Source of the DNA: a virus
Taxonomy: Duplodnaviria; Heunggongvirae; Uroviricota; Caudoviricetes
Reading direction: 5' to 3' (one strand)
Virus record (IMG/VR): IMGVR_UViG_2923296884_000001
Length of the DNA stretch: 39,382 bases
Shown here: one piece after another, positions 1,931-18,107 of the stretch
Layout of the letters: every line of letters begins with the position of its first letter
How positions within the stretch are numbered: position 1 is the first letter of the stretch
Notes under the pieces: model-generated
Told to the model about the DNA's origin: nothing
The model's input: only the letters and a program-made list of their open reading frames with translations
Databases searched by the model: none
Position numbers and translations under genes: made by a program

Positions 1931-2191
1931 TTAATTCTGAGGTAAAGGCAAACTCATCTGATTGTTTCCCCTGTGTGAAGCTGGCAGCTCATGCCACGGG
2001 ATACCTTCTGAAGAGTGAACGCCGGAGGTGTGTTTTGATGTGAATTTATGGAAAGCTTCCAGTGTTGAGAAGCATACGCCGCATTCCAGGTTGTTACACT
2101 GGTAATACTTTTGCCGCACGGTGTTTGAATCATTTTCCGGACGACTGGTGCGGATACGGGCAGATGCGCCACAAAGCGGACAACGGAACAT
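1931..2191 (-). CDS. ogr: Ogr/Delta-family zinc-finger late-gene activator
   Basis: N-terminus MFRCPLCGASARIRTSR...YYQCNNLECGVCF matches the Ogr C-x2-C...C-x4-C zinc finger; SD AAGGGAGG upstream of the ATG at 2191; sits immediately after D as in P2. Confidence 0.8.
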   Translation of the reverse strand: MFRCPLCGASARIRTSRPENDSNTVRQKYYQCNNLECGVCFSTLEAFHKFTSKHTSGVHSSEGIPWHELPASHRGNNQMSLPLPQN

Positions 2192-2233
2192 AGCGACCTC
2201 CCTTAACGTGGTGCTGCTGCTATTCTAAGTTGC

Positions 2234-3343: not shown

Positions 3344-3500
3344 CTGCTCCCTCCCTGTGCGGCATGGTCGCATGTGCGTGCGGAGGGGGTTACTGCTTTT
3401 TGTTGTCGCCGTGGCGGGAGAACGGCGCAGGGGTGAGATTACGCGCGTGGTGGGTGATGATTGTTGCTGAATCATTTAACGGATACAAGGGGCTAAAGCT
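3344..3500. promoter_or_regulatory. divergent intergenic region between D and FI; candidate late promoter(s)
   Basis: 157-bp gap between divergent D and FI starts; contains TTGTTGT-N-AGAACGG, a motif also present upstream of P at 22975-23004. Confidence 0.4.
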
Positions 3501-4685
3501 ATGAGTGAAACTCGTTTTCATGGTGCCCGTGTTACGGAAAGTACCGACCTGGTAACAGCGATTAACGATGTTGATTCCAGCGTTATCGGTATCGTGGCAA
3601 CGGCGGATGATGCGGACGCGAAGCTGTTCCCGCTGAACAAGCCCACACTGCTGACCCGCGTCAATGACGTGCTGGGAAAATGCGGGACAACGGGGACGCT
3701 TTATCGTGCGCTTAAGGCCATCGCAGACCAGGTGAGCACAAAGGTGATCGTCGTTCGCGTGGCTGAACACAAAGAAGAAAACGGAAAGACGCAGGATCAA
3801 CTGGTTATCGGTGGTTCTGAATCTGACGGCAGCTATACGGGGATGTATGCGCTGCTTGTTGCAGAGCAGGATGAAAGCATCGGATACCGTCCGCGTATTC
3901 TGGCCGCGCCGGAGCTGGACACGGAGGCGGTGACAAAATCCCTGTGCGTGATTGCGGGTAAAGTGCGCGCGTTTGTGTATGCCACATGTCATGGTTGTAA
4001 CACGATGGCTGAGGCGATTACCTACCGCCAGAAATTCAACGAACGTGAGGTGATGCTCTTATGGCCTGACTTCATCGCCTACAACCCGAAAAGTGGCAAA
4101 AACGAAACGTTCCCCGCGCCTGCTTATGCGTGCGGCCTTCGTGCGTACATTGACCATGAGCAGGGCTGGCACAAATCGCTGTCCAACGTTCCGGTTAAAA
4201 ATGTGCTGGGGATGTCCAGGCATGTGTTCTGGTCGTTACAGGCCGAAGACAGTGATGCCAACAGCCTCAACAACAAAGAAATCACGACCATTATTCGTCG
4301 TAACGGGTTCCGCTTCTGGGGCAACCGCACACCGGAAACGAACGCCTACATCTTTGAGGTGTATACCCGAACCGCACAGGTGCTGGCTGATTCAATTGCG
4401 GAAGCGCAGTTTGAAACCATCGACAGTCCACTGACACCTGCGAACGTGAAGGATGTTATCAGCGCCATCAGAGCAAAACTGGATTCGCTGGTTACTGTCG
4501 GGAAACTGATTGGTGCGGAGTGCTGGTATGACGTGGTGGATAACAGCACCACGGGTTTACGTCAGGGGCGTGTGCGTATTCGCTACAAATATACGCCTGT
4601 TCCCCCGCTGGAAGACATGGAGCTTTACCAGTCGTTTACTGATGAATTCTTTGGTCCCGCATTTGCGGTGCTGGGAGGTGCCTGA
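3501..4685 (+). CDS. FI: tail sheath protein
   Basis: 394-aa ORF with sheath-protein features and P2 gpFI similarity; followed by the tube gene with ATGA overlap. Confidence 0.93.
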   Translation: MSETRFHGARVTESTDLVTAINDVDSSVIGIVATADDADAKLFPLNKPTLLTRVNDVLGKCGTTGTLYRALKAIADQVSTKVIVVRVAEHKEENGKTQDQLVIGGSESDGSYTGMYALLVAEQDESIGYRPRILAAPELDTEAVTKSLCVIAGKVRAFVYATCHGCNTMAEAITYRQKFNEREVMLLWPDFIAYNPKSGKNETFPAPAYACGLRAYIDHEQGWHKSLSNVPVKNVLGMSRHVFWSLQAEDSDANSLNNKEITTIIRRNGFRFWGNRTPETNAYIFEVYTRTAQVLADSIAEAQFETIDSPLTPANVKDVISAIRAKLDSLVTVGKLIGAECWYDVVDNSTTGLRQGRVRIRYKYTPVPPLEDMELYQSFTDEFFGPAFAVLGGA

Positions 4686-5197
4686 TGGCTGTACCAAAAC
4701 ATCTTCGCTTTTTTACGTTGTTTGTGGATGGTGAAAACGAAGTGGGTAAAGTGACATCCGTCACGCCACCCAAACTGACGCGCAAAACCGACAGCTATCG
4801 TGGTGGTGGCATGATGGGGGCGGTAAGTATTGATCTCGGTCTGGACGACTCCGCGCTTGATGCGAGTTTTGTCATGGGGGGAGCTGTTCGTGCGCTGTTC
4901 CTTAAATATGGCGGCACGATTGACGGCACGCTGCTGCGTTTTGCGGGTGAATACTACACCGATGCAGAAAGCGATCTGTATGAAATCGAGATGCGCGGGC
5001 GTGTGACGGAAATTGATATGGGGGAGGCCAAACAGGGCGAAGCCACATCACACACTTACGCTGTCAAAAACACCTACTACAAGCTGAGCGTTAACGATCG
5101 CCCGCTGTGGGAAATCGACCTGTTGAACCACATCTACCGGAAGGACGGCAAGGACATTGTGCCTGACCGCATTCGTTCCGCGCTTGGGCTTGGCTGA
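4685..5197 (+). CDS. FII: tail tube protein
   Basis: 170-aa ORF matching P2 gpFII, in the conserved position after the sheath gene. Confidence 0.93.
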   Translation: MAVPKHLRFFTLFVDGENEVGKVTSVTPPKLTRKTDSYRGGGMMGAVSIDLGLDDSALDASFVMGGAVRALFLKYGGTIDGTLLRFAGEYYTDAESDLYEIEMRGRVTEIDMGEAKQGEATSHTYAVKNTYYKLSVNDRPLWEIDLLNHIYRKDGKDIVPDRIRSALGLG

Positions 5198-5252
5198 TAA
5201 GTAATATGCAGGCGGCGCAGTGCGTCGCCTCTGACTGAAAAGGAGACAACTG

Positions 5253-5627
5253 ATGAAAGATATCGATACTGAAACCCGGAATAACACCGTAGCGGATGAT
5301 GTGACGGCAGGTGAGGATATGGCTGTCGAACGTGGTGTAAAACTTTCCCGGCCAATTGAGCGTGGTGGCGAAAAAATCACATATGTGGAGATCACCGGGG
5401 CTATTGAGCAGGCGGGATCCCTGCGTGGTCTGTCGCTGTCTGATGTGCTGAATCTGAAAGCGGATACCATGTTCACGCTGTTGCCTCGCGTGACCTCGCC
5501 ACGACTGGATGAAGTGATGATTAAAAAAATGTCGTCACGCGATTTTATTCGGTTGTGCGCTGTGGCTGTAAATTTTATGAGCGAGCCAGACTCTGGCGCG
5601 AAGAGCGTGCAGGAGACGGCAGCGTAA
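5253..5627 (+). CDS. E: tail assembly chaperone E
   Basis: 124-aa ORF in the conserved position between tube and tape-measure genes, with an overlapping -1 frame ORF as in P2 E/E'. Confidence 0.85.
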   Translation: MKDIDTETRNNTVADDVTAGEDMAVERGVKLSRPIERGGEKITYVEITGAIEQAGSLRGLSLSDVLNLKADTMFTLLPRVTSPRLDEVMIKKMSSRDFIRLCAVAVNFMSEPDSGAKSVQETAA

Positions 5628-5791
5628 TCACCCTGGTGTGCTTTGAGCACATCGAAGATCTGGTGGCGGATATTGCCGCCATTTTTAACTGGTCGCCCGC
5701 CGAAATCTTCATGATGACGCCCGGCGAAGTGGTTAGCTGGCGTGAGCGGGCGGCACTTCGCAGCGGGAATGCAGATAATGAAGACTCTTGA
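5555..5791 (+). CDS. E': E' extension (-1 frame) of the E+E' frameshift product; true junction lies upstream, about 5525-5555
   Basis: -1 frame ORF overlapping the 3' end of E and the 5' end of T; an A7 run at 5523-5529 sits where the -1 frame opens (stop at 5522-5524 in that frame). Confidence 0.65.
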   Translation: MRCGCKFYERARLWREERAGDGSVITLVCFEHIEDLVADIAAIFNWSPAEIFMMTPGEVVSWRERAALRSGNADNEDS

Positions 5792-8585
5792 CATCCGGGT
5801 CGCTTTCAGCGCCGTTGACAGGCTGACCCGGCCTGCCGAAAACGCCCGCCGCCTGATGGGGCAGTTTGGTGACTCCATCCAGCGAACGCAGGGGGCGATC
5901 AAAAATCTCGAGCGTCAGGCGCGTTCATTTGAGCGCGCCCGTGACGCTGTCAGTAAAGCGGATGCGGGTATCGTGAAAGCACGACGCCAGCTTAACGCCC
6001 TTAATCAGTTACAACGCACGGGTACAGTGCTCAGCGAAAAACAACAAAAGCTGATGCAGCAGTTAAGCACCCGGCTTGAACGCCTGAATGAATCGCGCAC
6101 ACGGGAAATTCAGAAAATGCGGGAACTTGGCGGAGAGCTGAAACGCCACGGCATTTCCCTGACAGGCAGCGATAACACCATCCAGCAGGCCATCAGACGC
6201 ACCGAACAGTACAACAACCAGCTTGAACGCGAACGGCAGGCGCTTGCGCGTGTAACGCGGGCGCGTGAGCGGTATTCGCGCGCGCAGGAAACCGCGGGAA
6301 AACTGAAAACAGGTGGTGCGCTGGCAATTGGTGCTGCAGCGGCTGGCGGCTATGCTGCCGGGCGTTTTTTGCAGCCTGCGATCGGGTTCGGCAAAGAGAT
6401 GTCCCGCGTTCAGGCACTGACGCGAATCGACAAAAACAGCCCGCAGTTTAAGGCGCTGCGTGAGCAGGCGTTAAAACTTGGTTCTGAAACACAGTTTACT
6501 GCGAGTGATGCCGCCAGTGGGCAGAGCTTTCTGGCAATGGCTGGTTTTACTCCGCAGGCCATTCAGGCCGCATTGCCCGGTGTTCTTAATATGGCGCTGG
6601 CAGGTGGCGTCGAACTCGGCGAGACGGCTGATATAGGCTCCAATATCCTCACACAGTTCAACCTGACAGCCGATCAAATGGACCGGGTTGGCGATACGCT
6701 GACAGCAGCATTCACCCGGACCAATACTGATTTACGCGCGCTGGGCGAAACCATGAAGTATACCGGTCCGGTTGCCGCAAAACTTGGTATCAGTCTTGAA
6801 GAAGCGGCGGCCATGGCCGGGATGCTTGCCAATAATGGTCTTCGCGGAAGCGATGCTGGTACGGCCATGCGCGCAAGTCTGTCCCGCCTTGCATCACCGC
6901 CAAAAGCTGCGGCTGATGCACTGAAAGAGCTGGGGGTGTCAGTTGCTGACGCCAGAGGCAAAATGCGCCCGATGGAGGATGTGCTGCTTGATCTCTATAA
7001 GGCGACACAAAAATACGGACAGGTGGACCAGGTTTCCTTCTTCAAGGACATCGCCGGAGAAGAGGCGTTCGTTGGTTTACAGACGCTTGTTGCGGCGGCT
7101 GGTTCAGGAGAGCTGCAAAAACTGACCAGAGAATTGCAGGGGGCAAGGGGAGAGGCCGATCGCGTTGCAAAAGTAATGGCCGATAATCTTGATGGGGACC
7201 TGAAAAATCTCGACAGCGCATGGGAAGGTCTTCGTATTCGCATCAGTGATCTGGTTGACGGTCCGCTGCGTTCTGTCACGCAGTGGCTCACGCGGGTGCT
7301 TGAAAAAATCACCTCGCTGGCGCAGGCCCATCCGGTACTGACGCGCCAGCTACTGATAGCAGGCGGTGCGTTGCTGGCAATGACTGCAACGATTGGCTCG
7401 TTGTCGCTGGTTATTGGGGTGCTTTACGGAAAGCTGGCCACCCTGCGTCTTGGTTTTGACATTCTTACCCGGTCAATGAATGTCGTCCGGGTGTTGCCTG
7501 CGCTGTGGGGAATGCTGACGGGTTCTGTTTCTTTGCTGGGAGGCGCTATCGGGGCGCTGTTCAGTCCGGTTGGATTGATTGCTGCTGCGTTTGTGGCTGC
7601 GGCGGTTCTCATCTGGAAATACTGGGAACCCATTAAGGCGTTTTATGCCGGGGTGTTCAACGGGATTATGGAAAGGCTGACCCCGTTGCGCGAAACCTTT
7701 GAACGGTTTGGTCCTGTTTTTGACGCAATCGGAAGCGGGATCAGCCAGGTGTTTAACTGGTTTAAATCGCTGCTGTCACCGATGGAGTCCAGCAAGGAAA
7801 CGCTGGATAAATGTACCAGTGCTGGCGAGATATTCGGTAACGTTCTTGGTGGCGCGTTACAGCTTGTTCTGACGCCTGCAAAAATGTTGCTGGATACGCT
7901 GGCGTGGATACTTGAAAAACTCGGTGTTCTTCCGGATGAAGCGGAAAGGGCGAGAAAGAAAATCGAAGACGCACAGCGTGCGGCCATTCTTCAGGACAAG
8001 GTTACCTTGCTTCAGGGGGACCTGGCGAAAATCAATCCGCCGAAGCCTGTGGAAAATGGCAATGGCACCGGAGGTGATAACCCCAAAGACAATAAACCGC
8101 TCACAGACAGCAATACCGGGACGCTGCGCAGACTCAGCAAAATTGCTGATAACACAGGTAAGCTGGTTGAGGAGACGAAAAAACGCATTGGCCCCGGCGA
8201 TATTGTCTTTAAAAACCTGCCCCGAGCACTTGCTGTTCGTGGGGAGTGGCAGGAGCGGAAGATTGCGCAGGTCAGTAAGCCTGCCCCCGCAATTAATATC
8301 ACACCCGTGGTCCCGGCTCCGCTGCCTCCGGCGCTGGTCCCTGTTGTTGCGGCCAGCTCCCGCCCGGTGGCGGAGGCCATACGATCTCCAGTGGCATCAG
8401 TTCCTGTAACTTCCCGTAACCGGGAGCCTGTTGCCTCCGGATTTGGTGGTGAAATTCATGTTCATCTGCATAACGTTGTTACGCAGAATCCCCGCGAACT
8501 GGCGAAACTGGTCGGTGAAATGGTCAGGGCAGAAATGGAACGGCGTGCCCGTGCCGGGCGTGGCAGTTTTTACGATAAAGATTGA
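5769..8585 (+). CDS. T: tail tape-measure protein
   Basis: About 940-aa ORF with coiled-coil N-terminal half, Gly/Ala-rich hydrophobic segments and a Pro-rich C-terminus, in the P2 gpT position; start (5742, 5769 or 5778) overlaps E'. Confidence 0.9.
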   Translation: MQIMKTLDIRVAFSAVDRLTRPAENARRLMGQFGDSIQRTQGAIKNLERQARSFERARDAVSKADAGIVKARRQLNALNQLQRTGTVLSEKQQKLMQQLSTRLERLNESRTREIQKMRELGGELKRHGISLTGSDNTIQQAIRRTEQYNNQLERERQALARVTRARERYSRAQETAGKLKTGGALAIGAAAAGGYAAGRFLQPAIGFGKEMSRVQALTRIDKNSPQFKALREQALKLGSETQFTASDAASGQSFLAMAGFTPQAIQAALPGVLNMALAGGVELGETADIGSNILTQFNLTADQMDRVGDTLTAAFTRTNTDLRALGETMKYTGPVAAKLGISLEEAAAMAGMLANNGLRGSDAGTAMRASLSRLASPPKAAADALKELGVSVADARGKMRPMEDVLLDLYKATQKYGQVDQVSFFKDIAGEEAFVGLQTLVAAAGSGELQKLTRELQGARGEADRVAKVMADNLDGDLKNLDSAWEGLRIRISDLVDGPLRSVTQWLTRVLEKITSLAQAHPVLTRQLLIAGGALLAMTATIGSLSLVIGVLYGKLATLRLGFDILTRSMNVVRVLPALWGMLTGSVSLLGGAIGALFSPVGLIAAAFVAAAVLIWKYWEPIKAFYAGVFNGIMERLTPLRETFERFGPVFDAIGSGISQVFNWFKSLLSPMESSKETLDKCTSAGEIFGNVLGGALQLVLTPAKMLLDTLAWILEKLGVLPDEAERARKKIEDAQRAAILQDKVTLLQGDLAKINPPKPVENGNGTGGDNPKDNKPLTDSNTGTLRRLSKIADNTGKLVEETKKRIGPGDIVFKNLPRALAVRGEWQERKIAQVSKPAPAINITPVVPAPLPPALVPVVAASSRPVAEAIRSPVASVPVTSRNREPVASGFGGEIHVHLHNVVTQNPRELAKLVGEMVRAEMERRARAGRGSFYDKD

Positions 8586-8591
8586 GGAGTC

Positions 8592-9086
8592 ATGGCCATG
8601 ATGATGATCTATGGCATGTTTGTTTTTGAGCTGCGCACATTGCCGCATCAGCAGTTACAGCAAAACAAAAGCTGGCGGCATGTGAAAAATGAACGCGTTA
8701 ATCGTTCAGCAAGCTGGCAGTATATCGGCGCAGGTGATGATCGCATCGTGCTTTCCGGCGTGCTTTATCCTGAAATTACAGGTGGCGAAGTGTCGCTTTC
8801 GTTGCTGACCACGCAGGCATATACAGGACGCCCCTGGCCTCTGATTGATGGTGTCGGGCAGATTTACGGCATGTATGTACTGACTGAAACGAATACGACC
8901 CGTTCCGAGTTTGATCGCTACGGTAAGGCGAAAAAGATAGAATTTTCACTGACTCTTGAACGCTGTGATGAGGATTTGCGGGAGCGCCTGCAATCCTCAT
9001 CGTTCAGTGATATGCTGTCCGGCTTCAAAGATAAGGTCACATCATCCCTTAACAGCGCGGCCAGCTCCGTTAAAGGGCTGTTTTGA
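8592..9086 (+). CDS. U: tail protein U
   Basis: 164-aa ORF immediately after T with similarity to P2 gpU (MFVFELRTLPHQ... vs P2 MFVFMRQTLPHQ...). Confidence 0.9.
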   Translation: MAMMMIYGMFVFELRTLPHQQLQQNKSWRHVKNERVNRSASWQYIGAGDDRIVLSGVLYPEITGGEVSLSLLTTQAYTGRPWPLIDGVGQIYGMYVLTETNTTRSEFDRYGKAKKIEFSLTLERCDEDLRERLQSSSFSDMLSGFKDKVTSSLNSAASSVKGLF

Positions 9087-9093
9087 TTAACGC

Positions 9094-9123
9094 AAAACCG
9101 CTAATGGTCAGATTAGCGGTTTT
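9094..9123. terminator. palindromic hairpin between convergent U and invertase genes (bidirectional terminator candidate)
   Basis: AAAACCGCTAAT-ggtcag-ATTAGCGGTTTT perfect 12-bp inverted repeat, A-run on one side and T-run on the other; overlaps the invertase stop codon. Confidence 0.5.
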
Positions 9124-9712
9124 CATTTTCCTGAGTCTGCCTGGTTGTTTCTTCAGCCTGTATATCGCCTACAGGGTGATAACGATAAATCGTCGATATG
9201 CCGATGTCGTAAATGATCGCCAGTTGTTTCCTGTCATGACCGTTTTTAATCAGCCTCGCTATTTGCTCGTGTTGTTCTTTTGTCAACTTCGGGCGACGTC
9301 CGCCAATGCGTCCTTGTGCGCGTGCTGCTGCCAGCCCGGCCAGTGTACGCTCTACAATTAATTCACGTTCCATTTCGGCTAAAGCCCCCATGACGTGAAA
9401 AAAGAAACGCCCCATGGGTGTTGATGTGTCAATGCTGTCCGTCAGACTACGGAAATTAACACCTTTTTCCCGCAATTCCTCAATAAGCGTGATCAGGTGT
9501 TTCATACTTCTGCCCAGTCTGTCCAGCTTCCAGACAACCAGCGTATCTCCTTCTGATAGCGTTCTGAGCAGTTTTTTCAATCCCGGTCTGGTTGATTTCG
9601 TTCCGCTGATTTTATCTTCAAAAATCAGTTCACATCCTGCGCAGTTCAGTGCATTGCGTTGTAAATCCGTGTTCTGGTCGTTTGTTGACACACGAATATA
9701 GCCAATTTGCAT
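9113..9712 (-). CDS. serine-recombinase DNA invertase (Hin/Gin/Cin/Pin family)
   Basis: Translation from the ATG at 9712, MQIGYIRVSTNDQNTDLQRNAL..., carries the catalytic serine (GYIRVSTNDQ) and a C-terminal HTH; lies right next to an inverted-repeat-flanked tail-fibre segment. Confidence 0.93.
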   Translation of the reverse strand: MQIGYIRVSTNDQNTDLQRNALNCAGCELIFEDKISGTKSTRPGLKKLLRTLSEGDTLVVWKLDRLGRSMKHLITLIEELREKGVNFRSLTDSIDTSTPMGRFFFHVMGALAEMERELIVERTLAGLAAARAQGRIGGRRPKLTKEQHEQIARLIKNGHDRKQLAIIYDIGISTIYRYHPVGDIQAEETTRQTQENENR

Positions 9713-9726
9713 AAAAAACATCCTCT

Positions 9727-10245
9727 TTGTTTCGTGAAAAATACAGAGTTGGTATAGGTAGGGATAAAAACGAAAACGTTGGTTTAGGAGAAGGCTCGGC
9801 GCTACCCGTTGGTGTGCCTGTTCCGTGGCCCACTGCCACACCGCCAGCAGGCTGGTTACAGTGCAACGGAGCTACGTTCACCAAAGAACAATATCCTGTT
9901 CTGGCCAGAGTCTACCCGACCCTCCGTCTTCCCGATTTGCGCGGTGAGTTTATCCGTGGATGGGACGGTGGTCGCAAGGTTGATACCGGGCGTACGGTAC
10001 TTTCATTTCAGGAAGGGACTATCGTATCCGGTTTTGATGATAATAATACCGGAGATATCAGTTCGCTCGGCTCTACACAATACGGATTTGGTGACGCTTT
10101 AACCTCTAATCAACTGGGGGTCATAAATGGCAAAAAGTGGATATTTGATGCATCCTCTAAAGGTGCACAAAGATATGACTGGTGGGCTTATGTATCAGCT
10201 CGCCCCCGCAATATCGCATTTAACTATATCGTGAGGGCGGCGTGA
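9727..10245 (+). CDS. alternative tail-fibre C-terminal cassette (Hv'), promoterless in the current orientation
   Basis: Opens inside the left inverted repeat with no plausible start of its own (ORF-track start is a TTG); ends ...RPRNIAFNYIVRAA, matching the conserved P2-type fibre C-terminus. Confidence 0.8.
   Translation: MFREKYRVGIGRDKNENVGLGEGSALPVGVPVPWPTATPPAGWLQCNGATFTKEQYPVLARVYPTLRLPDLRGEFIRGWDGGRKVDTGRTVLSFQEGTIVSGFDDNNTGDISSLGSTQYGFGDALTSNQLGVINGKKWIFDASSKGAQRYDWWAYVSARPRNIAFNYIVRAA
9765..9790. other. gix/hix-like crossover site (left)
   Basis: Reverse complement TTCTCCTAAACCAACGTTTTCGTTTT shares its first 17 nt with the right-hand site; resembles the 26-bp gix architecture with AAACC half-sites. 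Confidence 0.5.
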
Positions 10246-10251
10246 TACCGT

Positions 10252-10866
10252 TCAACTGGCAAGTGCCAGTGGTGCTTCCGGCCAGATGATTTCAGGTGCC
10301 GTGCTGATATCCAGTGCGTTCAGCTCGTCGATATAATCCAGCACGGCGTTCAGTTTTGCCGTTTCTTCTGGTGTCAGACTGCGACCAGCACGCAGTTTGA
10401 GGTTGATAAGATCGACGGACGCCATCGCCTGTTTCACCCGTTGCTGGCGTTGCTGTCTGGCAACCTCCAGTTCTGCGGTTCGCTGCCGTTCAGTATCGGT
10501 TACCCACGCCTCACCGTTCCAGGTATCCCATGGCGTGGCTGGCTGTTTTGTGGTGGTGTCCGCCGGGTAATCACCCGGTTGGGTAATCAGAACGGGGTTA
10601 CCGTTCTCCGTGCTGTATACCGTCTCGCCGCGGTGATCAGGCACATGCTCCCACCCGTTCAGCGTGGCAGTCCGGCAAACCACGTAACCCGAAATTGCCT
10701 CCGGCGGTGCATCGGCGCACGAATGTGCCGGAGTACCCACCCCAAGGGCGAGATACTCCACAGAGGATGAGGTGTATTCCCGGGTTTCCTCGTCATAGTG
10801 ATATACAGTGATATCGCCCGCTACAGTGGCGATACCGTTTTCATCCAGAACTGCAGTGTTACTCAT
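10252..10866 (-). CDS. tail fibre assembly chaperone (Tfa / P2 gpG-like)
   Basis: 204-aa ORF translationally coupled (TAATG) to the upstream fibre C-terminal ORF; variable N-terminal half and conserved C-terminal half typical of Tfa proteins. Confidence 0.85.
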   Translation of the reverse strand: MSNTAVLDENGIATVAGDITVYHYDEETREYTSSSVEYLALGVGTPAHSCADAPPEAISGYVVCRTATLNGWEHVPDHRGETVYSTENGNPVLITQPGDYPADTTTKQPATPWDTWNGEAWVTDTERQRTAELEVARQQRQQRVKQAMASVDLINLKLRAGRSLTPEETAKLNAVLDYIDELNALDISTAPEIIWPEAPLALAS

Positions 10867-11108
10867 TAAACTGCCCTCACAATGTAATTAAGTGCAATGC
10901 TACGGGGTCTGACAGTGATACCCTTCGCATACCCGCTTCTGATAGAGGTCAGAATAGTAGCCTGCATACCATTGTCTGACATTGCTATGACAGGATCGCT
11001 GAATGTTGTCCCGTCCGGCATTTTAAAGCTGCCCTCACGAAGGTCTGTAATGGAATCTTCATTGTTGAATCCCATGCCGACTATCCCGAGGTTCCCGTAG
11101 TGTCCTGG
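10866..11108 (-). pseudogene. distal part of the currently fused fibre C-terminus, in a different frame from H (frameshifted end)
   Basis: This frame is open from 11108 and ends ...RPRSIALNYIVRAV, the conserved fibre terminus, while the H frame stops at 11081; the two frames overlap at 11081-11108. Confidence 0.5.
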
Positions 11109-12688
11109 TTATAATAATCCAGCATTGCTGTTCTTAACAGCGTTGCCCCTTGTGCGGACAGCAACTTACGTCCTGTATCAACTTTGCGCCCGTCGTCCCA
11201 TCCACGGATAAACTCACCGCGTAAATCGGGAAGACGGAGGGTCGGGTAGGCTCTGGCCAGAACAGGATATTGTTCTTTTGTAAAGGCGCGCCCGTCGCAC
11301 TTTAACCAGCCTGCTGGCGGTGTGGCGGTGGGCCACGGAACAGGCACACCAACGGGTAGCGCCGAGCCTTCTCCTAAACCAAGGTAATTGAGGACATCTT
11401 TTATACTGCCCTTAGCGATAATAGCGCGACCAATAGCTGTAAGGGTTGCCAGCGCTGCGCGGTCTGCTCCGGTAAAATAAGGCAACCGATCTGCTGCAGT
11501 GGCAAGTCCTGCCAGAGCAGTGAGCGTGGCATCTGCCGGTTGTTTTCCGTTTGCCAGATCGTATGCAGCCTTGACCGCTTTCGGTGTGGCGGCCAGTATT
11601 TCAGACGTGCTGTTGGTGGCGCTACTGAGTTGAACAAGGCCTTTTCGTGCCGTAGTCGCATCCTGAGCGGTATATTTCCCGTTAGCCAGGTCATATGCAG
11701 CCTTAACCGCTTTCGGTGTTGCGGCCAGCGTTTCAGAGGTGCTGTTGGTGGCGCTACTGAGTTGAACAAGGCCTTTTCGTGCCGTAGTCGCATCCTGAGC
11801 GGTATATTTCCCGTTAGCCAGGTCATATGCAGCCTTAACCGCTTTCGGTGTTGCGGCCAGCGTTTCAGAGGTGCTGTTGGTGGCGCTACTGAGTTGAACA
11901 AGGCCTTTTCGTGCCGTAGTCGCATCCTGAGCGGTATATTTCCCGTTAGCCAGGTCATATGCAGCCTTAACCGCTTTCGGTGTGGCGGCCAGCGTTTCAG
12001 AGGTGCTGTTGGTGGCGCTACTGAGTTGAACAAGGCCTTTTCGTGCCGTAGTCGCATCCTGAGCGGTATATTTCCCGTTAGCCAGGTCATATGCATCCTT
12101 AACCGCTTTCGGTGTTGCGGCCAGCGTTTCAGAGGTGCTGTTGGTGGCGCTGCTAAGTTGAACAAAGCCTTTTGCGGTCAGCGAGGCGTCCGGGTGACGT
12201 CGTGACTGCTCGTGCTCTGATATTTTATCATCCACATATTTGCGGGTTGCCAGAACCACAGACGGGTCGATTTTCAGCGTGATGGCTTCGGTGTTCGTGA
12301 CAACCAGAATCATGCGGATAGTCTGGGTGCGTCCACTGCCTTCCTGCAACTGCGGTTTGTACGTTTCCGGGCAGTTTGCCACCGCAATGAGTACACCTTT
12401 ATCATCATAAAGACCAATCTCACGGATCCAGAATCCTCCCTCGCTTTCAGGGATGATTTGCTCCGCAATAATCTGGCTCTGATTGTTAGGGTCAACACTC
12501 AGAAGATTCAGCGGTGCAATGCGTTTCTGGTTAATCAGTTTTGTTTGTGCAGGGTCTGGTGTTGGTAACACACCATTTGCATCACCAACGGCCATTCGCG
12601 TCAGATTCAGCTTACTGCCGAGCATCGTCGCGTTAGCCAGTCGTGCCGCGCCCTGATTAGTCAGAATGGCGTAGTATTTCACTGTCAT
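11081..12688 (-). CDS. H: tail fibre protein H (constant part plus currently fused variable end)
   Basis: 535-aa ORF with a P2 gpH-like N-terminus, five tandem 44-aa repeats, and a C-terminal region that enters the right inverted repeat. Confidence 0.9.
   Translation of the reverse strand: MTVKYYAILTNQGAARLANATMLGSKLNLTRMAVGDANGVLPTPDPAQTKLINQKRIAPLNLLSVDPNNQSQIIAEQIIPESEGGFWIREIGLYDDKGVLIAVANCPETYKPQLQEGSGRTQTIRMILVVTNTEAITLKIDPSVVLATRKYVDDKISEHEQSRRHPDASLTAKGFVQLSSATNSTSETLAATPKAVKDAYDLANGKYTAQDATTARKGLVQLSSATNSTSETLAATPKAVKAAYDLANGKYTAQDATTARKGLVQLSSATNSTSETLAATPKAVKAAYDLANGKYTAQDATTARKGLVQLSSATNSTSETLAATPKAVKAAYDLANGKYTAQDATTARKGLVQLSSATNSTSEILAATPKAVKAAYDLANGKQPADATLTALAGLATAADRLPYFTGADRAALATLTAIGRAIIAKGSIKDVLNYLGLGEGSALPVGVPVPWPTATPPAGWLKCDGRAFTKEQYPVLARAYPTLRLPDLRGEFIRGWDDGRKVDTGRKLLSAQGATLLRTAMLDYYNQDTTGTSG
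11369..11394. other. gix/hix-like crossover site (right)
   Basis: TTCTCCTAAACCAAGGTAATTGAGGA: imperfect dyad of 12-bp half-sites around a central AA, at the outer edge of the right inverted repeat. Confidence 0.5.
11510..12170 (-). repeat. five tandem copies of a 132-bp (44-aa) coding repeat inside H
   Basis: Near-identical 132-bp units at about 11640, 11772, 11904 and 12036 plus a more diverged flanking copy; encode LVQLSSATNSTSETLAATPKAVKAAYDLANGKYTAQDATTARKG. Confidence 0.85.
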
Positions 12689-13293
12689 GCGTTTACTCTC
12701 AGATTATCAATTAAATGAATGGCCGGGGCAGGGAAATAATCCCCTTCGACAATAATGGACTCCGGGGTGTAGGGATAAACCGTCAGGGCGTCGCCGTAAT
12801 AGCATCCCGTACCAACGAAAATCTTTCCGTTCACACTCAGGCTGATCGCCAGCCCCGTCAGATGGCGACTTACTGGTTTTGCATCCGCAATAAGGCGCTC
12901 AAGTTCCTGATACATTTCATCGGTGATGCCCTGATCAAGTACTCCGACAACAATGCGAAATGTCCCAGGCTCCTCATTGAGTTGCCACCACTCCTTTACT
13001 TCAATCAGGTAGCCGAGAGGCTCCACGGCTCTTCGCAGTGCGCTGATGGTCCCTTTGTGTCGGTGTATCAGCCATGCATCACGAATTACCTGTCGCTTTG
13101 TCTCTTCCGGCCAGTTGCGATCCCAGCGGTCAACGGAAAACGCCCAGGCGAGATAAGGCAGCAGATGCACCGGGCAGGTGTCCGGCGACCACAACGTGTT
13201 GAGGTCTACCGGAATGTCTGTAATGCGTGTTCCGACGGCTTCGGCACAACGCATGAAATTGCTGGCTGATGGTGGTAACAACGAATTACTCAT
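12685..13293 (-). CDS. I: baseplate protein I
   Basis: P2 gpI-like ORF; start taken as the ATG at 13293 (MSNSLL..., SD AAGGTGGA); overlaps the J stop and the H start as in P2. Confidence 0.85.
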   Translation of the reverse strand: MSNSLLPPSASNFMRCAEAVGTRITDIPVDLNTLWSPDTCPVHLLPYLAWAFSVDRWDRNWPEETKRQVIRDAWLIHRHKGTISALRRAVEPLGYLIEVKEWWQLNEEPGTFRIVVGVLDQGITDEMYQELERLIADAKPVSRHLTGLAISLSVNGKIFVGTGCYYGDALTVYPYTPESIIVEGDYFPAPAIHLIDNLRVNA

Positions 13294-14182
13294 TGCGTCC
13301 ACCTTCGCTGATGGTGAATGACTCACAGCGCGCCGCCTGTATGTCGCTGATGGCCATATTCTGTGTGGGTTCGATTATCTCCACGCGTTGCACACCGTGC
13401 ACATGCAGTGCGGCAGCAATGGCGGACAACGCCACGTCCTGACCGATAAGCCCCTGCTCAGCCAGCCACTTCCTGAACGACGATTCAGCCGCCGCCAGAA
13501 TAGGTTCGGATTCCGGGCCGGGGTAAAAGTACAGTTTTGCATTCAGCCGCCATGTCACGATTCTGGCGCTCTGTACAGTAAGGCGGTCGGCCACCGGGCG
13601 GGTATCCTCTGCATTCAGAACGGCGCGAACGGTATTAAGCAACGCCTCCGTTGCTGTGCCGTCGCCTTCAGTGGACAGGATGGAAACCGTCACATTTGCC
13701 GGAGACGGACTGATAGCCCGCGCATCACGCACCAGACCGCTGGCGCTGCGGGCAAAATACTCGTATGCACCTGACGGGCCAGCAACACTCAGGCCATCGT
13801 ACGCCCGCTGCGCCCGCAGTCTCAGCGAGGTGTCACTTTCCATCACTGCGTCGGTGGTATCTGTTGCCGGAGTGATGGTCAGGCGCTTTGTGTTCATATT
13901 GCCCGCGAGGTTGTCCAGGTCTGTCCCGGCGCTGTGGCTTAACATGCAGGCGCGTGCCCCCTCATTGACCCGCTGGCGTAACAGCATTTCACGAAAAGAC
14001 ATGGTTTGAGCGATAACGTTCAGGGGTTCCGATTCCAGCTCCAGCGCGGCGGAGACGGCTTCACGCTGTTCGGCAGGATAGGACGCAATCATCATGGCCT
14101 TTGTGTCAGCCAGAATTGCCTCAAAATCAGGCTTCGCGATGATGGCGGGTTCCGGTAACTGGGAAAGGTCAACAGCAGGCAT
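13286..14182 (-). CDS. J: baseplate wedge protein J
   Basis: 298-aa ORF with P2 gpJ similarity and conserved position. Confidence 0.9.
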   Translation of the reverse strand: MPAVDLSQLPEPAIIAKPDFEAILADTKAMMIASYPAEQREAVSAALELESEPLNVIAQTMSFREMLLRQRVNEGARACMLSHSAGTDLDNLAGNMNTKRLTITPATDTTDAVMESDTSLRLRAQRAYDGLSVAGPSGAYEYFARSASGLVRDARAISPSPANVTVSILSTEGDGTATEALLNTVRAVLNAEDTRPVADRLTVQSARIVTWRLNAKLYFYPGPESEPILAAAESSFRKWLAEQGLIGQDVALSAIAAALHVHGVQRVEIIEPTQNMAISDIQAARCESFTISEGGRNE

Positions 14183-14185
14183 GAT

Positions 14186-14536
14186 TTACTCCCTCAGCGT
14201 GATGGTTAACTCAACATTCTGCATGGTCTGCATGACAGTGCCCGACAGCGTCACCCCGGCGCGGCCTCCTGCCTTCCAGACAACGTCGATGGCGTCCAGG
14301 GCAATGCGGGGTTCCCATCGTGTCAGCGCAATCACGGCAGCACTCATGCATTGCAGACGCGTGGTGTTATTCATGGGTTCGTCAATCAAATCAGGTACAA
14401 GGCTGCCATATTCCCGTCGCATAACCCGGCTGGCCAGCGGGGTGGTCAGGATGTCCCTGACTGACTGTTTCAGGTGCTCCGTATCGTTCAGGTTTCCCGT
14501 CCCGTCCGGATTCATTCCTGTGTAGCGGGTTGTCAC
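14186..14536 (-). CDS. W: baseplate protein W (gp25-like)
   Basis: 116-aa ORF between V and J with P2 gpW similarity. Confidence 0.88.
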   Translation of the reverse strand: MTTRYTGMNPDGTGNLNDTEHLKQSVRDILTTPLASRVMRREYGSLVPDLIDEPMNNTTRLQCMSAAVIALTRWEPRIALDAIDVVWKAGGRAGVTLSGTVMQTMQNVELTITLRE

Positions 14537-15114
14537 TGCGGGCCTCCTGTCGAATCGCTGCCACCTTTAACGCCACCGTGTTTATGCGTATGCACTGTGA
14601 TACCGTTTGAGGTGAAATTGCCGCCGCTGTGCGTGATATTGCCGCTCATCTTTCCCCCTTTTGTGACGTCAAGCGTCTCCGTTCTCAGAAGGTTTGTGCA
14701 TTCCACGACGGGCGTGTCCAGTTTCACGCTGACGGATGCCTGTAAAGTGGCCGTTTTCATGCCGCTGGCGCTCAGTGCGCCTGCGTCCGCGTCGTAGCGG
14801 AACACCGCGCCGTCCGGCGCGCTGATCACGATTTCTTTCAGGCTTTTGCCGGGGGCCGGACTGGCATCACTCCACAGGCTGCCAATTATCATGGCGGTTT
14901 CCGGGTTGCCGCCAATGCAGGCAATTACTACCTGTTCGCCTGGTGATGGCGGCAGCCACACATTGAAGGCTCCCGCGCGCGTGGTGTTCCAGCGCAGCCA
15001 GCCTGTTTCCAGTTCGCCGCTGCGAACGCGCACGCGCCAGGACTTCTCATCAACTTCAGAGATGATCCCGGTGCGGATGATATTGCTCAGCAGTCGCATG
15101 AGTTCTGCGCTCAC
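14533..15114 (-). CDS. V: baseplate spike protein V
   Basis: 193-aa ORF with P2 gpV-like spike features; start is the GTG at 15114 or the ATG at 15099. Confidence 0.88.
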   Translation of the reverse strand: MSAELMRLLSNIIRTGIISEVDEKSWRVRVRSGELETGWLRWNTTRAGAFNVWLPPSPGEQVVIACIGGNPETAMIIGSLWSDASPAPGKSLKEIVISAPDGAVFRYDADAGALSASGMKTATLQASVSVKLDTPVVECTNLLRTETLDVTKGGKMSGNITHSGGNFTSNGITVHTHKHGGVKGGSDSTGGPQ

Positions 15115-16229: not shown

Positions 16230-18107
16230 TTATGCTGCGGGATTATTGATTTCCAGCACCAGGCTGCCGATATCGACGCCATACGTTGCATTTTTGGTAA
16301 TATCCGTCAGCGTCAGTGCATTCAGCCCCAGTGTCAGACTGTCTTTTATGACCTGGAATGCCGGGCCAACCAGTCCATTCAGTTTCGGAGTAACCGTGGC
16401 ACTGCCGGCGGTGAACACCAGCTCCAGCGTCTGCCAGTCGTTACTGTAATTCCCGAACTCGCCCAACTTTGTGTTTCCGGCTTTCTTGTGATGCATCAGA
16501 TTCAGTTTGCCGTCTGTGGTCTGGGTGAAGAACGACATCAGGAACGGGTTACCAGTCCCGGTCATCGCCACGACGTCAGGTAACGCTACATCGGTATACA
16601 GATAAATTCCCAGACCGAACTGGTTGTTGGTCAGTGCGCCTGACAGTCGAAACTTACAGCTCAGTCTGCCACCCCGTGTCAGCAGGGAGACTGCGTCATC
16701 CACCGGGCGCGTCAGGGACCAGGCTTTATTGCTCTGCTTGGCGATCTTAAATACACCATCTGACAACTGAATTCCGCCATTCTTAATGCTCCAGCCCTGC
16801 GCAGCAGCATCTCCGGCTGTCGGCAACAGGGAGATTGTGCGTACGGATGCATCTTCAGACGGCCCCGATGGCGTGTCGCCGCCGGGCGAGGGTTTGATTT
16901 CCGGTGCCTTACCACTGATGAAGGCTGAGGTGCGCCCGGCTGCGTTCAGAATAGCGGTTGCCATACGATCCGGAATAATGCTCCTGCGCGCCCATGAACT
17001 GAAATGTGTCGGGCGGTTTGATGATACCCAATTACCATTACTACGGGATTGCGCGCCGTAATAACCTGCATCAGCAATATCCGGGTCTTCTGCCGGTAAG
17101 TTGGTGGGCGTGTTGTTGCCGTTACCGTCGGTCATGAACGGCACAAAGAAAACGTTGTCGCTCTCCCTGTTTTTGTACGCGCCGTAGACGGAGTCATACT
17201 GTGTGCCGTATGTGTTTTTCCAGTAATACGTCGTGTCGCCACAAATCCACGGTACAACTGCAGCACTGCCGCCATGGCACTGCGCGTTAAATCCGGAAAG
17301 GTCAGTACGGAACTGCTTCAGCATGGCCGTGAACAGGTCCGGTTGCTGTGCGTAGGTGGCAGCGCTCATGTCAAATTCGCCCTGCATCCAGCACACCGCC
17401 AGCAACACATTTTTCGGGTTCTTCTGTAATGCCGCTTTGGTGCGTGCGATCAGGTCCTGATATAACGGTTTACCCACACCCCAGCGTGCCGAATCCTGGC
17501 TGGCCCCCGTGTCCGCACTGAATGTCCCCTCCGCGCCCTGGGTGAATGCCGAACCACCACGACAGCATGGTACCAGCAGGATCCCCGCGTTATTCGGGAT
17601 ATACGGAAGCAGTTTTTTGGCAATATGTAAGCCCTGGCCGACACAGCCGTACTGCCCTTTGCTCAGGTCTGCCTTCGGATGATTCAGTGCGCTCATATCC
17701 TGAACATCATGCAGGCAGTGGTCTGCCGGAATGATGTCGTTAAATGCGCATGCTTTACCACCGGGAGTCACTGTGTTGCGACGGGCCAGTTGCTTAATGC
17801 GTGGGTGGGGCGCATCGTAAGAATCCGGCAGCGGCATTCCCTCACCATATGACATGGCATTGGATTGACCAGCAAGTACCACCACGTAATACCACTCCGG
17901 CACGCTGCCGTGCTGGGGGGAATCAGGTGAGATGTCTGTAGTGCCATCGGCCACCATTGCCTGCATTAGATACCACGGGGTGCCGGGTTCGTAGGCAACC
18001 CGCGTCTCCCCCTGAAGATGCCACCCTTTCGCAAGATGTTCATTCACCTTTTGAGTCAGTTCAGCCTGTGTCATGGCTGTAATCAGTGCAAAGTTCTTAC
18101 TGGTCAT
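16230..18107 (-). CDS. SASA-domain carbohydrate esterase (sialate O-acetylesterase-like, NanS-p-like), 625 aa
   Basis: Contains VVVLAGQSNAMSYGEG (GQSN motif) and WMQGEFD, typical of the SASA esterase family, plus a ~300-aa C-terminal domain; start overlaps the o-spanin stop (ATGA). Confidence 0.75.
   Translation of the reverse strand: MTSKNFALITAMTQAELTQKVNEHLAKGWHLQGETRVAYEPGTPWYLMQAMVADGTTDISPDSPQHGSVPEWYYVVVLAGQSNAMSYGEGMPLPDSYDAPHPRIKQLARRNTVTPGGKACAFNDIIPADHCLHDVQDMSALNHPKADLSKGQYGCVGQGLHIAKKLLPYIPNNAGILLVPCCRGGSAFTQGAEGTFSADTGASQDSARWGVGKPLYQDLIARTKAALQKNPKNVLLAVCWMQGEFDMSAATYAQQPDLFTAMLKQFRTDLSGFNAQCHGGSAAVVPWICGDTTYYWKNTYGTQYDSVYGAYKNRESDNVFFVPFMTDGNGNNTPTNLPAEDPDIADAGYYGAQSRSNGNWVSSNRPTHFSSWARRSIIPDRMATAILNAAGRTSAFISGKAPEIKPSPGGDTPSGPSEDASVRTISLLPTAGDAAAQGWSIKNGGIQLSDGVFKIAKQSNKAWSLTRPVDDAVSLLTRGGRLSCKFRLSGALTNNQFGLGIYLYTDVALPDVVAMTGTGNPFLMSFFTQTTDGKLNLMHHKKAGNTKLGEFGNYSNDWQTLELVFTAGSATVTPKLNGLVGPAFQVIKDSLTLGLNALTLTDITKNATYGVDIGSLVLEINNPAA

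What the first reader, a model, noticed from the sequence alone, without database searches (positions are those of the whole stretch)
9779..11381. Invertible segment holds only one tail-fibre assembly gene
Mu-type segments carry two fibre C-termini and two assembly-chaperone genes arranged symmetrically. Here the segment is laid out as Hv' (plus), then tfa and Hv (both minus), so after inversion the Hv' cassette would have no chaperone gene downstream. Together with the frameshifted Hv this suggests a decaying or functionally reduced switch, or a chaperone shared between both variants.
Basis: inference. Interest (0 to 1): 0.35.

Follow-up and report, generated by a model that had tools for sequence, protein, structure and literature searches.

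The report
One-chaperone invertible tail-fibre switch
This is an ordinary, widespread prophage DNA switch that swaps the tip of the tail fibre; having one fibre-assembly chaperone gene is the normal design of its family, not decay.

Summary
A 1.6-kb segment (crossover cores 9779/80 and 11381/82) lies beside a Hin/Pin-type invertase in a P2-like prophage. It carries fibre tip Hv' (+), one tfa (-) and fibre tip Hv (-). No second tfa exists anywhere in the 39-kb window.

The "decaying switch" reading is not supported. The same unit [tip A -> tfa -> <- tip C] occurs in hundreds of complete E. coli genomes in both orientations (282 as here, 165 inverted). It also occurs on P1-like plasmids of the p15B Min type and in arrays of up to about 9 tips that still have a single tfa.

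Among 96 non-redundant related loci, 46 of 49 segments with "collar"-type tips on both arms have exactly one tfa. Two tfa genes appear when the two arms carry different fibre types. Inversion at the identical 26-bp site was shown by long reads in E. coli EC958 prophage Phi2.

The frameshift is one C lost from a C4 run. It is private to this window and may be a sequencing error.

The "shared chaperone" reading is the best supported, because every tip class sits directly upstream of this Tfa type somewhere. How Tfa is made when the segment is flipped, 6 nt from the fibre stop and antisense, is unresolved.

The parts
9113..9712 (-). Serine DNA invertase of the Hin/Gin/Cin/Pin/Min family, 199 aa, on the same strand as the fibre operon
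   Evidence: Pfam Resolvase 2.4e-51 and HTH_7 1.4e-12. PHROG 125 'DNA invertase' 8e-99. 83-86% identical to invertases beside e14-like and Phi2-like segments.
9767..9792 (.). Invertase-proximal 26-bp crossover site AAAACGAAAACG TT GGTTTAGGAGAA, core 9779-9780
   Evidence: The half-site GGTTT(A/G)GG(A/G)GAA precedes every cassette in all related loci. The form matches the Din-family consensus quoted in PMC4134206, Table 3.
9781..10245 (+). It fuses in frame to Hc after inversion.
   Evidence: Pfam Collar 1e-15. PDB matches to T4 gp37 tip 2xgf and short tail fibre 9cuy. In-silico inversion gives a 590-aa ORF. The Hc-C fusion is present in 165 E. coli genomes.
10252..10866 (-). The single tail-fibre assembly gene, TfaE-type, 204 aa. 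Its ATG overlaps the stop of cassette A (TAATG), and a GAGGG Shine-Dalgarno sequence lies 7 nt upstream.
   Evidence: Caudo_TAP 5.9e-28. PHROG 105 2.6e-88. 60% identical to the tfa of the e14-like locus L014 and 57% to the clade-2 Tfa. Upstream sequence shown.
10866..11380 (-). It is broken by loss of one C in a C4 run at 11085-11087.
   Evidence: The intact version is 587 aa in L001. All best E. coli matches are 702 nt against 701 nt here.
11369..11394 (.). Crossover site inside the fibre gene (cassette orientation TCCTCAATTACC TT GGTTTAGGAGAA), core 11381-11382
   Evidence: It is 26/26 identical to the Phi2_5prime site of E. coli EC958, where inversion was seen in PacBio reads (PMC4134206).
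11382..12688 (-). Constant part of the fibre gene (Hc). It has a P2 H-like N-terminus and 4.8 copies of a 132-nt repeat at 11543-12173.
   Evidence: Pfam Phage_tail_fib 1e-61 and Phage_fiber_2 x5. Tandem repeat.
9776..10004 (.). Left arm of the 229-nt inverted repeat. It encodes the conserved N-terminal half of the collar domain.
   Evidence: 90% complementary to 11157-11385.
11157..11385 (.). Right arm of the 229-nt inverted repeat
9094..9123 (.). Hairpin with T-runs between gpU (+) and the invertase (-). It is a likely bidirectional terminator that separates the convergent tail operons.
   Evidence: 12-bp stem followed by CATTTTCCTG. This is a consensus match only.

Best explanation
The segment is a minimal, two-cassette member of the Pin/Min-type tail-fibre inversion switch, inside a P2-like (P88-like) prophage.

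Mechanism. The serine invertase recombines two inverted 26-bp sites. One site lies inside the fibre gene and the other lies next to the invertase gene. Recombination flips the fixed unit [tip A -> tfa -> <- tip C]. The constant fibre shaft is then fused in frame either to tip A (the state in this window) or to tip C.

Tips and chaperone. Both tips are T4 gp37/gp12-like collar domains with a different receptor-binding insert. The family carries one TfaE-type chaperone for all collar-type tips, however many cassettes there are. A single tfa is therefore the design and not a loss.

State A. tfa is co-transcribed with the fibre gene and translated from its own Shine-Dalgarno sequence, which overlaps the fibre stop.

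State C. tfa is antisense. Its supply must then be independent of orientation (a weak internal promoter, or a tfa from another prophage), or it is not needed. This step is inferred and unresolved.

This copy. Tip A carries a private 1-nt deletion in a C4 run. In this copy only the flipped state encodes a full-length fibre, unless the deletion is a sequencing error.
For: Shown:
- Invertase domains, sites, inverted repeat and in-frame fusion.
- Both orientation states occur in nature. The Hc-A junction is in 282 complete E. coli genomes and the Hc-C junction in 165. The natural inverted state with antisense tfa 6 nt downstream is seen in L006-L008.
- Inversion at the identical Hc site was documented by PacBio in EC958 Phi2. 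A three-repeat shufflon in EPEC P2-like prophages was confirmed by PCR (PMC4134206; PMC4272514).
- One tfa is the rule. 46 of 49 non-redundant collar/collar segments have one tfa, with 2 to about 9 cassettes, in two Tfa clades that are 57% identical. 35 of 47 segments with a collar tip on only one arm have two tfa genes.
- The same module, with identical proteins, sits on the P1-like plasmid pB2C_96. A region 99% identical to p15B min is tabulated with a single tfaE among about 8 cassette ORFs (PMC5786510).

Supporting a shared chaperone:
- All five tip classes occur somewhere directly upstream of a co-oriented TfaE-type tfa. This includes a T05-like relative of tip C in L154.
- Tip T04, which sits in the convergent position in clade 2, is 75% identical in its variable part to T16, the tip of the e14-like locus L014. 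The tfa next to T16 is 77.5% identical to the clade-2 Tfa.
- Fixed-fibre phages with collar tips (EtG, KP12, pro483, 500465-1) all have a roughly 200-aa tfa directly downstream.
- Convergent-position tips are intact ORFs with dN/dS below 1.
Against: - No promoter that could drive tfa in the flipped state was found. There are 0 sigma-70-like sites in 8900-11600.
- The TGT-N12-ACA dyad at 9728 is at chance frequency and is not conserved in the second backbone.
- The hairpin at 9094-9123 should limit read-through from the convergent T-U operon, and other backbones lack that operon.
- Linkage of tip A with tfa is equally explained by the absence of a crossover site between them.
- The conserved C-terminal motif RPRNIAFNYIVRAA belongs to the collar fold (2xgf). 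It is therefore not evidence of a common Tfa-binding site.
- No experiment shows that tip C needs Tfa.
Confidence: 0.6

Rival explanations
1. Cassette-specific chaperone. Tfa serves only tip A, to which it is translationally coupled. Tip C and the other free cassettes fold without any Tfa. The switch then alternates between a Tfa-dependent and a Tfa-independent fibre.
For: - Only tip A is guaranteed a co-oriented tfa, and tfa sits inside rather than outside the invertible DNA.
- The A-position cassette type co-varies strictly with the Tfa clade (T00 with clade 1, T02 with clade 2), while free cassettes are shared between clades.
- Tip C's class is at the convergent position in 29 of 37 cases.
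- Sodalis and Rosenbergiella loci have a collar tip facing an unrelated tfa type (L043 and L028).
Against: - Every tip class, including a T05-like relative of tip C, occurs directly upstream of a TfaE-type tfa in some system.
- Collar tips in fixed-fibre phages always have a tfa.
- Near-identical Tfa proteins pair in cis with very different tips. T02 and T16 are only 38% identical in the variable part, yet their Tfa proteins are 77% identical. The chaperone is therefore not tip-specific.
- The co-variation is expected from physical linkage alone.
Confidence: 0.2
2. ON/OFF reading. Fibres need Tfa, and Tfa is made only when tfa is co-oriented. The flipped (C) state then yields fibre-defective particles, and tfa orientation acts as a second, hidden switch.
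For: - Antisense position 6 nt from the fibre stop, with no detectable promoter for tfa in that state.
- Strong convergent late transcription would be expected to oppose tfa expression (inference).
Against: - Tip C types are intact in all loci sampled, with dN/dS below 1.
- About 37% of sequenced E. coli copies sit in this state.
- A cassette that can never be used would be expected to decay.
- The design is stable in two Tfa clades and three phage backbones.
Confidence: 0.1
3. One reading: a decaying, functionally reduced Mu-type switch that lost its second tfa.
For: - The frameshift in tip A is real in the sequence as given.
- The relative P88 has two tfa genes.
- One degenerate collar/collar segment with two broken tfa genes exists, L187.
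Against: - The single-tfa layout is conserved in 46 of 49 non-redundant collar/collar loci and in hundreds of E. coli genomes, with a constant 6-nt gap and no tfa remnant.
- The frameshift is private to this window, lies in a homopolymer run and is independent of tfa number.
- The invertase, both sites and tip C are intact.
Confidence: 0.07

Closest known systems
Min multiple-inversion system of plasmid p15B and P1-like phage-plasmids (Sandmeier, Iida, Arber 1990-92)
   Same: - Serine invertase, and 26-bp sites at the 5' end of each promoterless fibre-tip cassette.
- Collar-type tips, and a single tfaE-type gene inside the invertible DNA.
- The identical Tfa and tip C proteins occur on the P1-like plasmid pB2C_96.
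- A region 99% identical to p15B min is tabulated with one tfaE among about 8 cassettes plus pin (PMC5786510).
   Different: - Here there are only two cassettes and two sites, so two states instead of 240.
- The module is attached to a P2-type fibre shaft in a P2-like prophage.
- The original p15B papers were not readable here, so what they say about tfa is not checked.
Prophage Phi2 of E. coli ST131 EC958 and the P2-like shufflon of EPEC E2348/69
   Same: - The Hc crossover site is 26/26 identical.
- Same [A tfa C'] unit (L003).
- Inversion was seen in PacBio contigs (PMC4134206), and by whole-genome sequencing plus PCR in EPEC (PMC4272514).
   Different: - Phi2 has a third cassette and a 2067-bp segment, sits next to aroA, and has a different invertase allele (about 86% identical).
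- The published figure legend describes a 'mirror image' with a 'cognate minor tail fibre gene' and does not remark on the single tfa.
Mu G segment, P1 C segment and the P88 invertible segment
   Same: Invertase family, site type, in-frame swap of the fibre C-terminus, and invertase downstream of and co-oriented with the fibre gene.
   Different: Those segments are symmetric, and each tip has its own co-oriented tfa (P88: L010). Their tips are not collar-type.
e14 P segment (stfE-tfaE / stfP-tfaP, pinE) of E. coli K-12
   Same: The naming of e14 genes here rests on recall. The e14-like loci L013-L015 have a collar-type tip directly followed by a 200-aa tfa that is 60% identical to the window's Tfa, plus a Pin-type invertase 83-84% identical.
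   Different: The other arm carries a different fibre type with its own short tfa, so there are two tfa genes.
R64 shufflon (pilV)
   Same: Multiple promoterless 3' cassettes are fused to one constant 5' part by inversions.
   Different: It uses a tyrosine recombinase (Rci), pilus adhesins and no chaperone gene. It is analogous only. This comparison is from general knowledge and was not tested here.

Membership tests
Din-family (Hin/Gin/Cin/Pin/Min) invertible tail-fibre switch | Adjacent small serine recombinase with a C-terminal HTH | tested here: met
   Resolvase plus HTH_7 domains, 199 aa, with the motif GYIRVSTNDQ near the N-terminus. PHROG 'DNA invertase'.
Din-family (Hin/Gin/Cin/Pin/Min) invertible tail-fibre switch | Two 26-bp crossover sites in inverted orientation with the same 2-bp core | tested here: met
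   Sites at 9767-9792 and 11369-11394. The core is TT in cassette orientation at both sites. The right site is identical to the published Phi2_5prime site.
Din-family (Hin/Gin/Cin/Pin/Min) invertible tail-fibre switch | Inversion fuses a constant 5' gene part in frame to alternative 3' parts | tested here: met
   In-silico inversion gives an intact 590-aa ORF. Both fusions are annotated as whole fibre genes in natural genomes.
Din-family (Hin/Gin/Cin/Pin/Min) invertible tail-fibre switch | The segment actually inverts | tested here: met
   For the family, not for this strain. Both orientations are found in 282 and 165 complete E. coli genomes. Inversion at the identical site is shown by long reads in PMC4134206.
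Din-family (Hin/Gin/Cin/Pin/Min) invertible tail-fibre switch | Fis-dependent recombinational enhancer within the 5' part of the invertase gene | not tested
   No model of the enhancer was available and no search was made.
Mu G / P1 C type symmetric segment | Two tip-plus-tfa pairs arranged as mirror images | tested here: not met
   Only one tfa in the segment and in the whole window. P88 meets this feature.
p15B Min-type collar-cassette array | Collar-type (T4 gp37/gp12-like) promoterless cassettes, each preceded by a crossover site | tested here: met
   Pfam Collar in both tips. PDB matches 2xgf and 9cuy. A site precedes each cassette in all loci.
p15B Min-type collar-cassette array | A single tfaE-type gene inside the invertible DNA, flanked by one co-oriented and one convergent cassette | tested here: met
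   (46 of 49 loci). The P1-like plasmid L213 carries identical proteins. Feature table in PMC5786510.
p15B Min-type collar-cassette array | More than two crossover sites (multiple, overlapping inversions) | tested here: not met
   Only two sites and two cassettes in the window. Relatives have 3 to about 10.

The most novel reading that the evidence does not exclude
In this family the chaperone gene itself is flipped by the switch. Either (a) tfa carries an orientation-independent promoter inside the invertible DNA, so that one gene serves every fibre variant from either strand, or (b) tfa orientation is a hidden second switch that decides whether the chosen fibre variant can be assembled at all. 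Under (b) the convergent-position tip (Hv' here) would be expressed only without its cis chaperone. Neither has been described in the papers I could search, and neither is excluded by the sequence evidence.
Probability: 0.25. Interest if true: 0.5.

Novelty: already known. Interest (0 to 1): 0.25.

Why it matters
For annotation, the result is practical. Short "phage tail protein" ORFs beside an invertase are silent fibre-tip cassettes. A lone tfa among them is normal and should not be called a degraded Mu-type segment.

For phage biology, the comparison gives a simple rule. There is one chaperone when both arms carry collar-type tips, and two chaperones when the arms carry different fibre types.

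It also exposes a small open question: how, or whether, the single chaperone is supplied when it lies antisense to the fibre gene. That question can be tested directly with orientation-locked lysogens. It bears on engineering phage or tailocin host range with swapped collar tips and one common chaperone.

Tried and rejected
- **P2 Ogr-type late promoter dyad.** TGT-N12-ACA at 9728-9745, just outside the segment, looked as if it could drive tfa after inversion. I rejected it. There are 6 matches in the window against 9.2 expected. The window's late-promoter regions upstream of FI and P have no exact match to the dyad. The dyad is absent from the second backbone's spacer.
- **Sigma-70 promoter scan of 8900-11600.** It found none. 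By eye I saw only weak candidates.
- **Terminator-like hairpin at 10343-10362.** After inversion it would stop the Hc-C transcript early inside antisense tfa. It is not conserved in clade-2 or L004 tfa genes, so I dropped it.
- **Read-through from the convergent T-U operon.** A hairpin terminator at 9094-9123 stands in the way, and other backbones carrying the same module lack that operon. It cannot be a general mechanism.
- **Conserved C-terminal motif RPRNIAFNYIVRAA as a common Tfa docking site.** I rejected it as evidence, because the motif is the last strand of the collar fold in T4 gp37.
- **PDB sequence search with Tfa.** No relative was found, including the Mu Tfa structure.
- **Papers not held.** Sandmeier 1991 (PMC329034), Nguyen 2001 (PMC100113) and North & Davidson 2021 (PMC7811200) were not held. 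What those papers say about tfa number and Tfa specificity is unchecked.
- **dN/dS.** Divergence in the variable regions is too low for a strong test.
Full report
**What is there.** The window starts in serS and then runs through a P2-like prophage to its integrase. The tail-tube operon (FI to U, plus strand, ending at 9086) and the baseplate and fibre operon (W, J, I, H, minus strand) converge on the region of the finding.

Between them, in window order:
- a hairpin at 9094-9123;
- a 199-aa serine invertase on the minus strand, 9113-9712 (Resolvase plus HTH_7; PHROG 'DNA invertase');
- a 154-aa promoterless fibre tip on the plus strand, 9781-10245 (Collar domain);
- a 204-aa tfa on the minus strand, 10252-10866 (Caudo_TAP 6e-28, PHROG 105);
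- the fibre gene, 12688-11081, followed by a 69-codon continuation in another frame.

A 229-nt inverted repeat, 90% complementary, joins 9776-10004 to 11157-11385. At its outer ends are two 26-bp sites. In cassette orientation they read AAAACGAAAACG TT GGTTTAGGAGAA and TCCTCAATTACC TT GGTTTAGGAGAA.

- tblastn of Tfa against all 39 kb finds only the gene itself.
- A profile built from long and short Tfa types finds one hit in the window.
- The plus-strand ORFs inside the segment have no Tfa-like match.
- Cutting and inverting at the cores gives an intact 590-aa fibre ending in NYIVRAA.
- In that state tfa lies convergent, 6 nt beyond the fibre stop.

**The frameshift.** Seven intact relatives read TATCCCCGAGG where the window reads TATCCCGAGG (11082-11091). 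One C has been lost from a C4 run. All best matches to the Hc-A junction among 5,426 complete E. coli genomes are 702 nt against the window's 701 nt, and none shares the deletion. The lesion is therefore private to this sequence. It could be a slipped-strand mutation or a sequencing error. It has nothing to do with the number of tfa genes.

**The switch is live in the family.**
- A query spanning Hc plus tip A is covered at 80% or more in 282 complete E. coli genomes. The predicted inverted junction, Hc plus tip C, is covered in 165.
- Three inverted-state genomes were read in detail. Each shows a whole fibre gene, then tfa on the opposite strand 6 nt downstream, then the tip A fragment, then the recombinase (L006-L008).
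- The site inside the fibre gene is 26/26 identical to the 'Phi2_5prime' site of E. coli EC958. There, alternative PacBio contigs demonstrated inversion of a 2067-bp segment (PMC4134206). Locus L003, from another ST131 strain, has that three-cassette layout.
- A three-repeat, four-state shufflon in EPEC P2-like prophages was confirmed by sequencing and PCR (PMC4272514).

**One tfa is the design.** I collected relatives from four sources:
- E. coli genomes;
- IMG/VR contigs found with Tfa;
- IMG/VR contigs found with the invertase;
- one genome per species.

I mapped invertase, Tfa and collar cassettes on them with profiles. Among non-redundant loci, 46 of 49 segments with collar cassettes on both strands have exactly one tfa. 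The three exceptions are an internal duplication that looks like a mixed-orientation assembly (L135), a hybrid (L098) and a heavily degraded segment (L187).

The arrays hold from 2 to about 9 cassettes (for example L163, L114, L119). They fall into two Tfa clades that are 57% identical, and both clades have the same architecture. That architecture is an invariant unit in which a cassette is co-oriented with tfa and overlaps its start, and another cassette is convergent 6-12 nt past its stop.

By contrast, 35 of 47 segments with a collar tip on one arm only have two tfa genes. One is a 200-aa tfa next to the collar tip, and the other is a shorter type next to the other fibre type. The non-collar P88 segment also has two.

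The same module, with identical Tfa and tip C proteins, sits on the P1-like plasmid pB2C_96, attached to a different fibre shaft. A broken copy is in a Punavirus phage-plasmid. A plasmid region reported as 99% identical to p15B min is tabulated with a single tfaE among about eight cassette ORFs and pin (PMC5786510). The window is thus the two-cassette minimum of the p15B Min-type system, and "decay" does not explain its layout.

**What the parts are.** The tips match the T4 gp37 fibre tip (2xgf) and a short tail fibre (9cuy). The match runs over the conserved N-terminal stretch and the last strand (RPRNIAFNYIVRAA), which together form the collar domain. The 60-90 residues between them vary.

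The conserved C-terminus is therefore structural. It cannot be used as evidence for a common chaperone docking site. Its codons also supply the GAGGG ribosome-binding site 7 nt before the tfa ATG.

**Is the chaperone shared?** The evidence in favour:
- The cassettes fall into five sequence classes. Every class occurs somewhere directly upstream of a co-oriented TfaE-type tfa, including a T05-like relative of the window's tip C in L154.
- Tfa proteins that are 77.5% identical pair in cis with tips whose variable parts are only 38% identical (T02 and T16).
- T04 occupies the convergent position in clade 2. It is 75% identical in its variable part to T16, the tip of the e14-like locus L014.
- Collar-tipped fibres in phages without a switch, or at the fixed arm of one, always have a roughly 200-aa tfa immediately downstream (EtG, KP12, pro483, 500465-1).
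- Convergent-position tips are intact in every locus, and their dN/dS is below 1 (0.09-0.25 in the collar part, 0.29-0.66 in the variable part). Divergence is low, so this is weak support.

Published work summarised in PMC9608196 and PMC8174754 says that Mu Tfa has a variable N-domain that binds the fibre and a conserved C-domain that drives trimerisation. It also says that Tfa stays on the fibre tip. This fits one Tfa type serving one tip fold.

**What remains unexplained.** In the flipped state tfa is antisense to the late fibre transcript, and I could not find how it would be expressed:
- No sigma-70-like promoter was found in 8900-11600.
- The TGT-N12-ACA dyad at 9728 is at chance level and is not conserved.
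- Read-through from the convergent T-U operon is blocked by a hairpin, and it is impossible in other backbones that carry the same module.
- A candidate terminator inside antisense tfa is not conserved.

Three possibilities remain, and sequence alone cannot separate them. My probabilities are roughly:
- 0.6: shared chaperone with an unknown supply route (weak internal promoter, or tfa from another prophage);
- 0.2: tip C needs no Tfa;
- 0.1: the flipped state gives defective particles.

**Verdict.** The feature is real and correctly described. It is an already known kind of element, the Pin/Min-type fibre switch. Near-identical copies exist in hundreds of genomes, and inversion at the same site has been published. 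The papers I could read do not comment on the single chaperone. The one-or-two tfa rule, and the question of how tfa is supplied when antisense, are modest points that can be tested. Interest is low to moderate.

Noticed in passing
window 3501-9086 (+) versus 9113-15114 (-): The tail sheath/tube/tape-measure/U operon converges on the invertase and fibre operon. In P2 all these genes run in one direction. P88 and L005 share the arrangement. A hairpin at 9094-9123 lies between the two operons.
   Followed up: partly
window 11543-12173: A 132-nt tandem repeat, 4.8 copies at 96% identity, inside the constant fibre part (Phage_fiber_2 repeats). The repeat sequences and the fibre length differ between close relatives (535/587/559 aa in the window, L001 and L002).
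   Followed up: partly
window 16230-18107 (-): A 625-aa ORF with DUF1737, a SASA (sialate O-acetylesterase-like) domain and DUF6645. It is inserted between tail gene R and the lysis genes. It may be a moron or a surface-glycan esterase. It is also present in L005.
   Followed up: no
window 33616-34446 (-): An SPFH/Band 7 family ORF in the early region of the prophage. The relative L005 has ParM-type partition genes and a ClpX-type zinc-finger ORF in the corresponding region.
   Followed up: no
window 11082-11091: The frameshift is a C4-to-C3 contraction of a homopolymer run. It is not shared by any of 5,426 complete E. coli genomes and may be a sequencing error.
   Followed up: yes
L213 (plasmid pB2C_96) 2215-7166; L212 (phage vB_EcoM-673R5) 6100-9800: The same tip/tfa/tip module, with proteins identical to the chromosomal ones, is attached to a 928-aa fibre shaft on a P1-like phage-plasmid. 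The module appears to move between P2-like and P1-like elements.
   Followed up: partly
L043 (Sodalis MAG) 2153-4366; L028 (Rosenbergiella) 5409-7549: These are asymmetric segments. A collar-type tip fused to the fibre faces a convergent tfa of an unrelated (short or P88-like) type, and there is no TfaE-type gene at all.
   Followed up: no
window 9728-9745: An exact TGT-N12-ACA dyad (P2 Ogr-type late promoter motif) between the invertase start and the crossover site. It is at chance frequency and is not conserved in the second backbone.
   Followed up: yes
L135 2322-7597: An IMG/VR contig with the whole tip/tfa/tip unit present twice as a mirror image. This is probably an assembly artefact from a population of mixed orientation, as PMC4134206 warns.
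   Followed up: no
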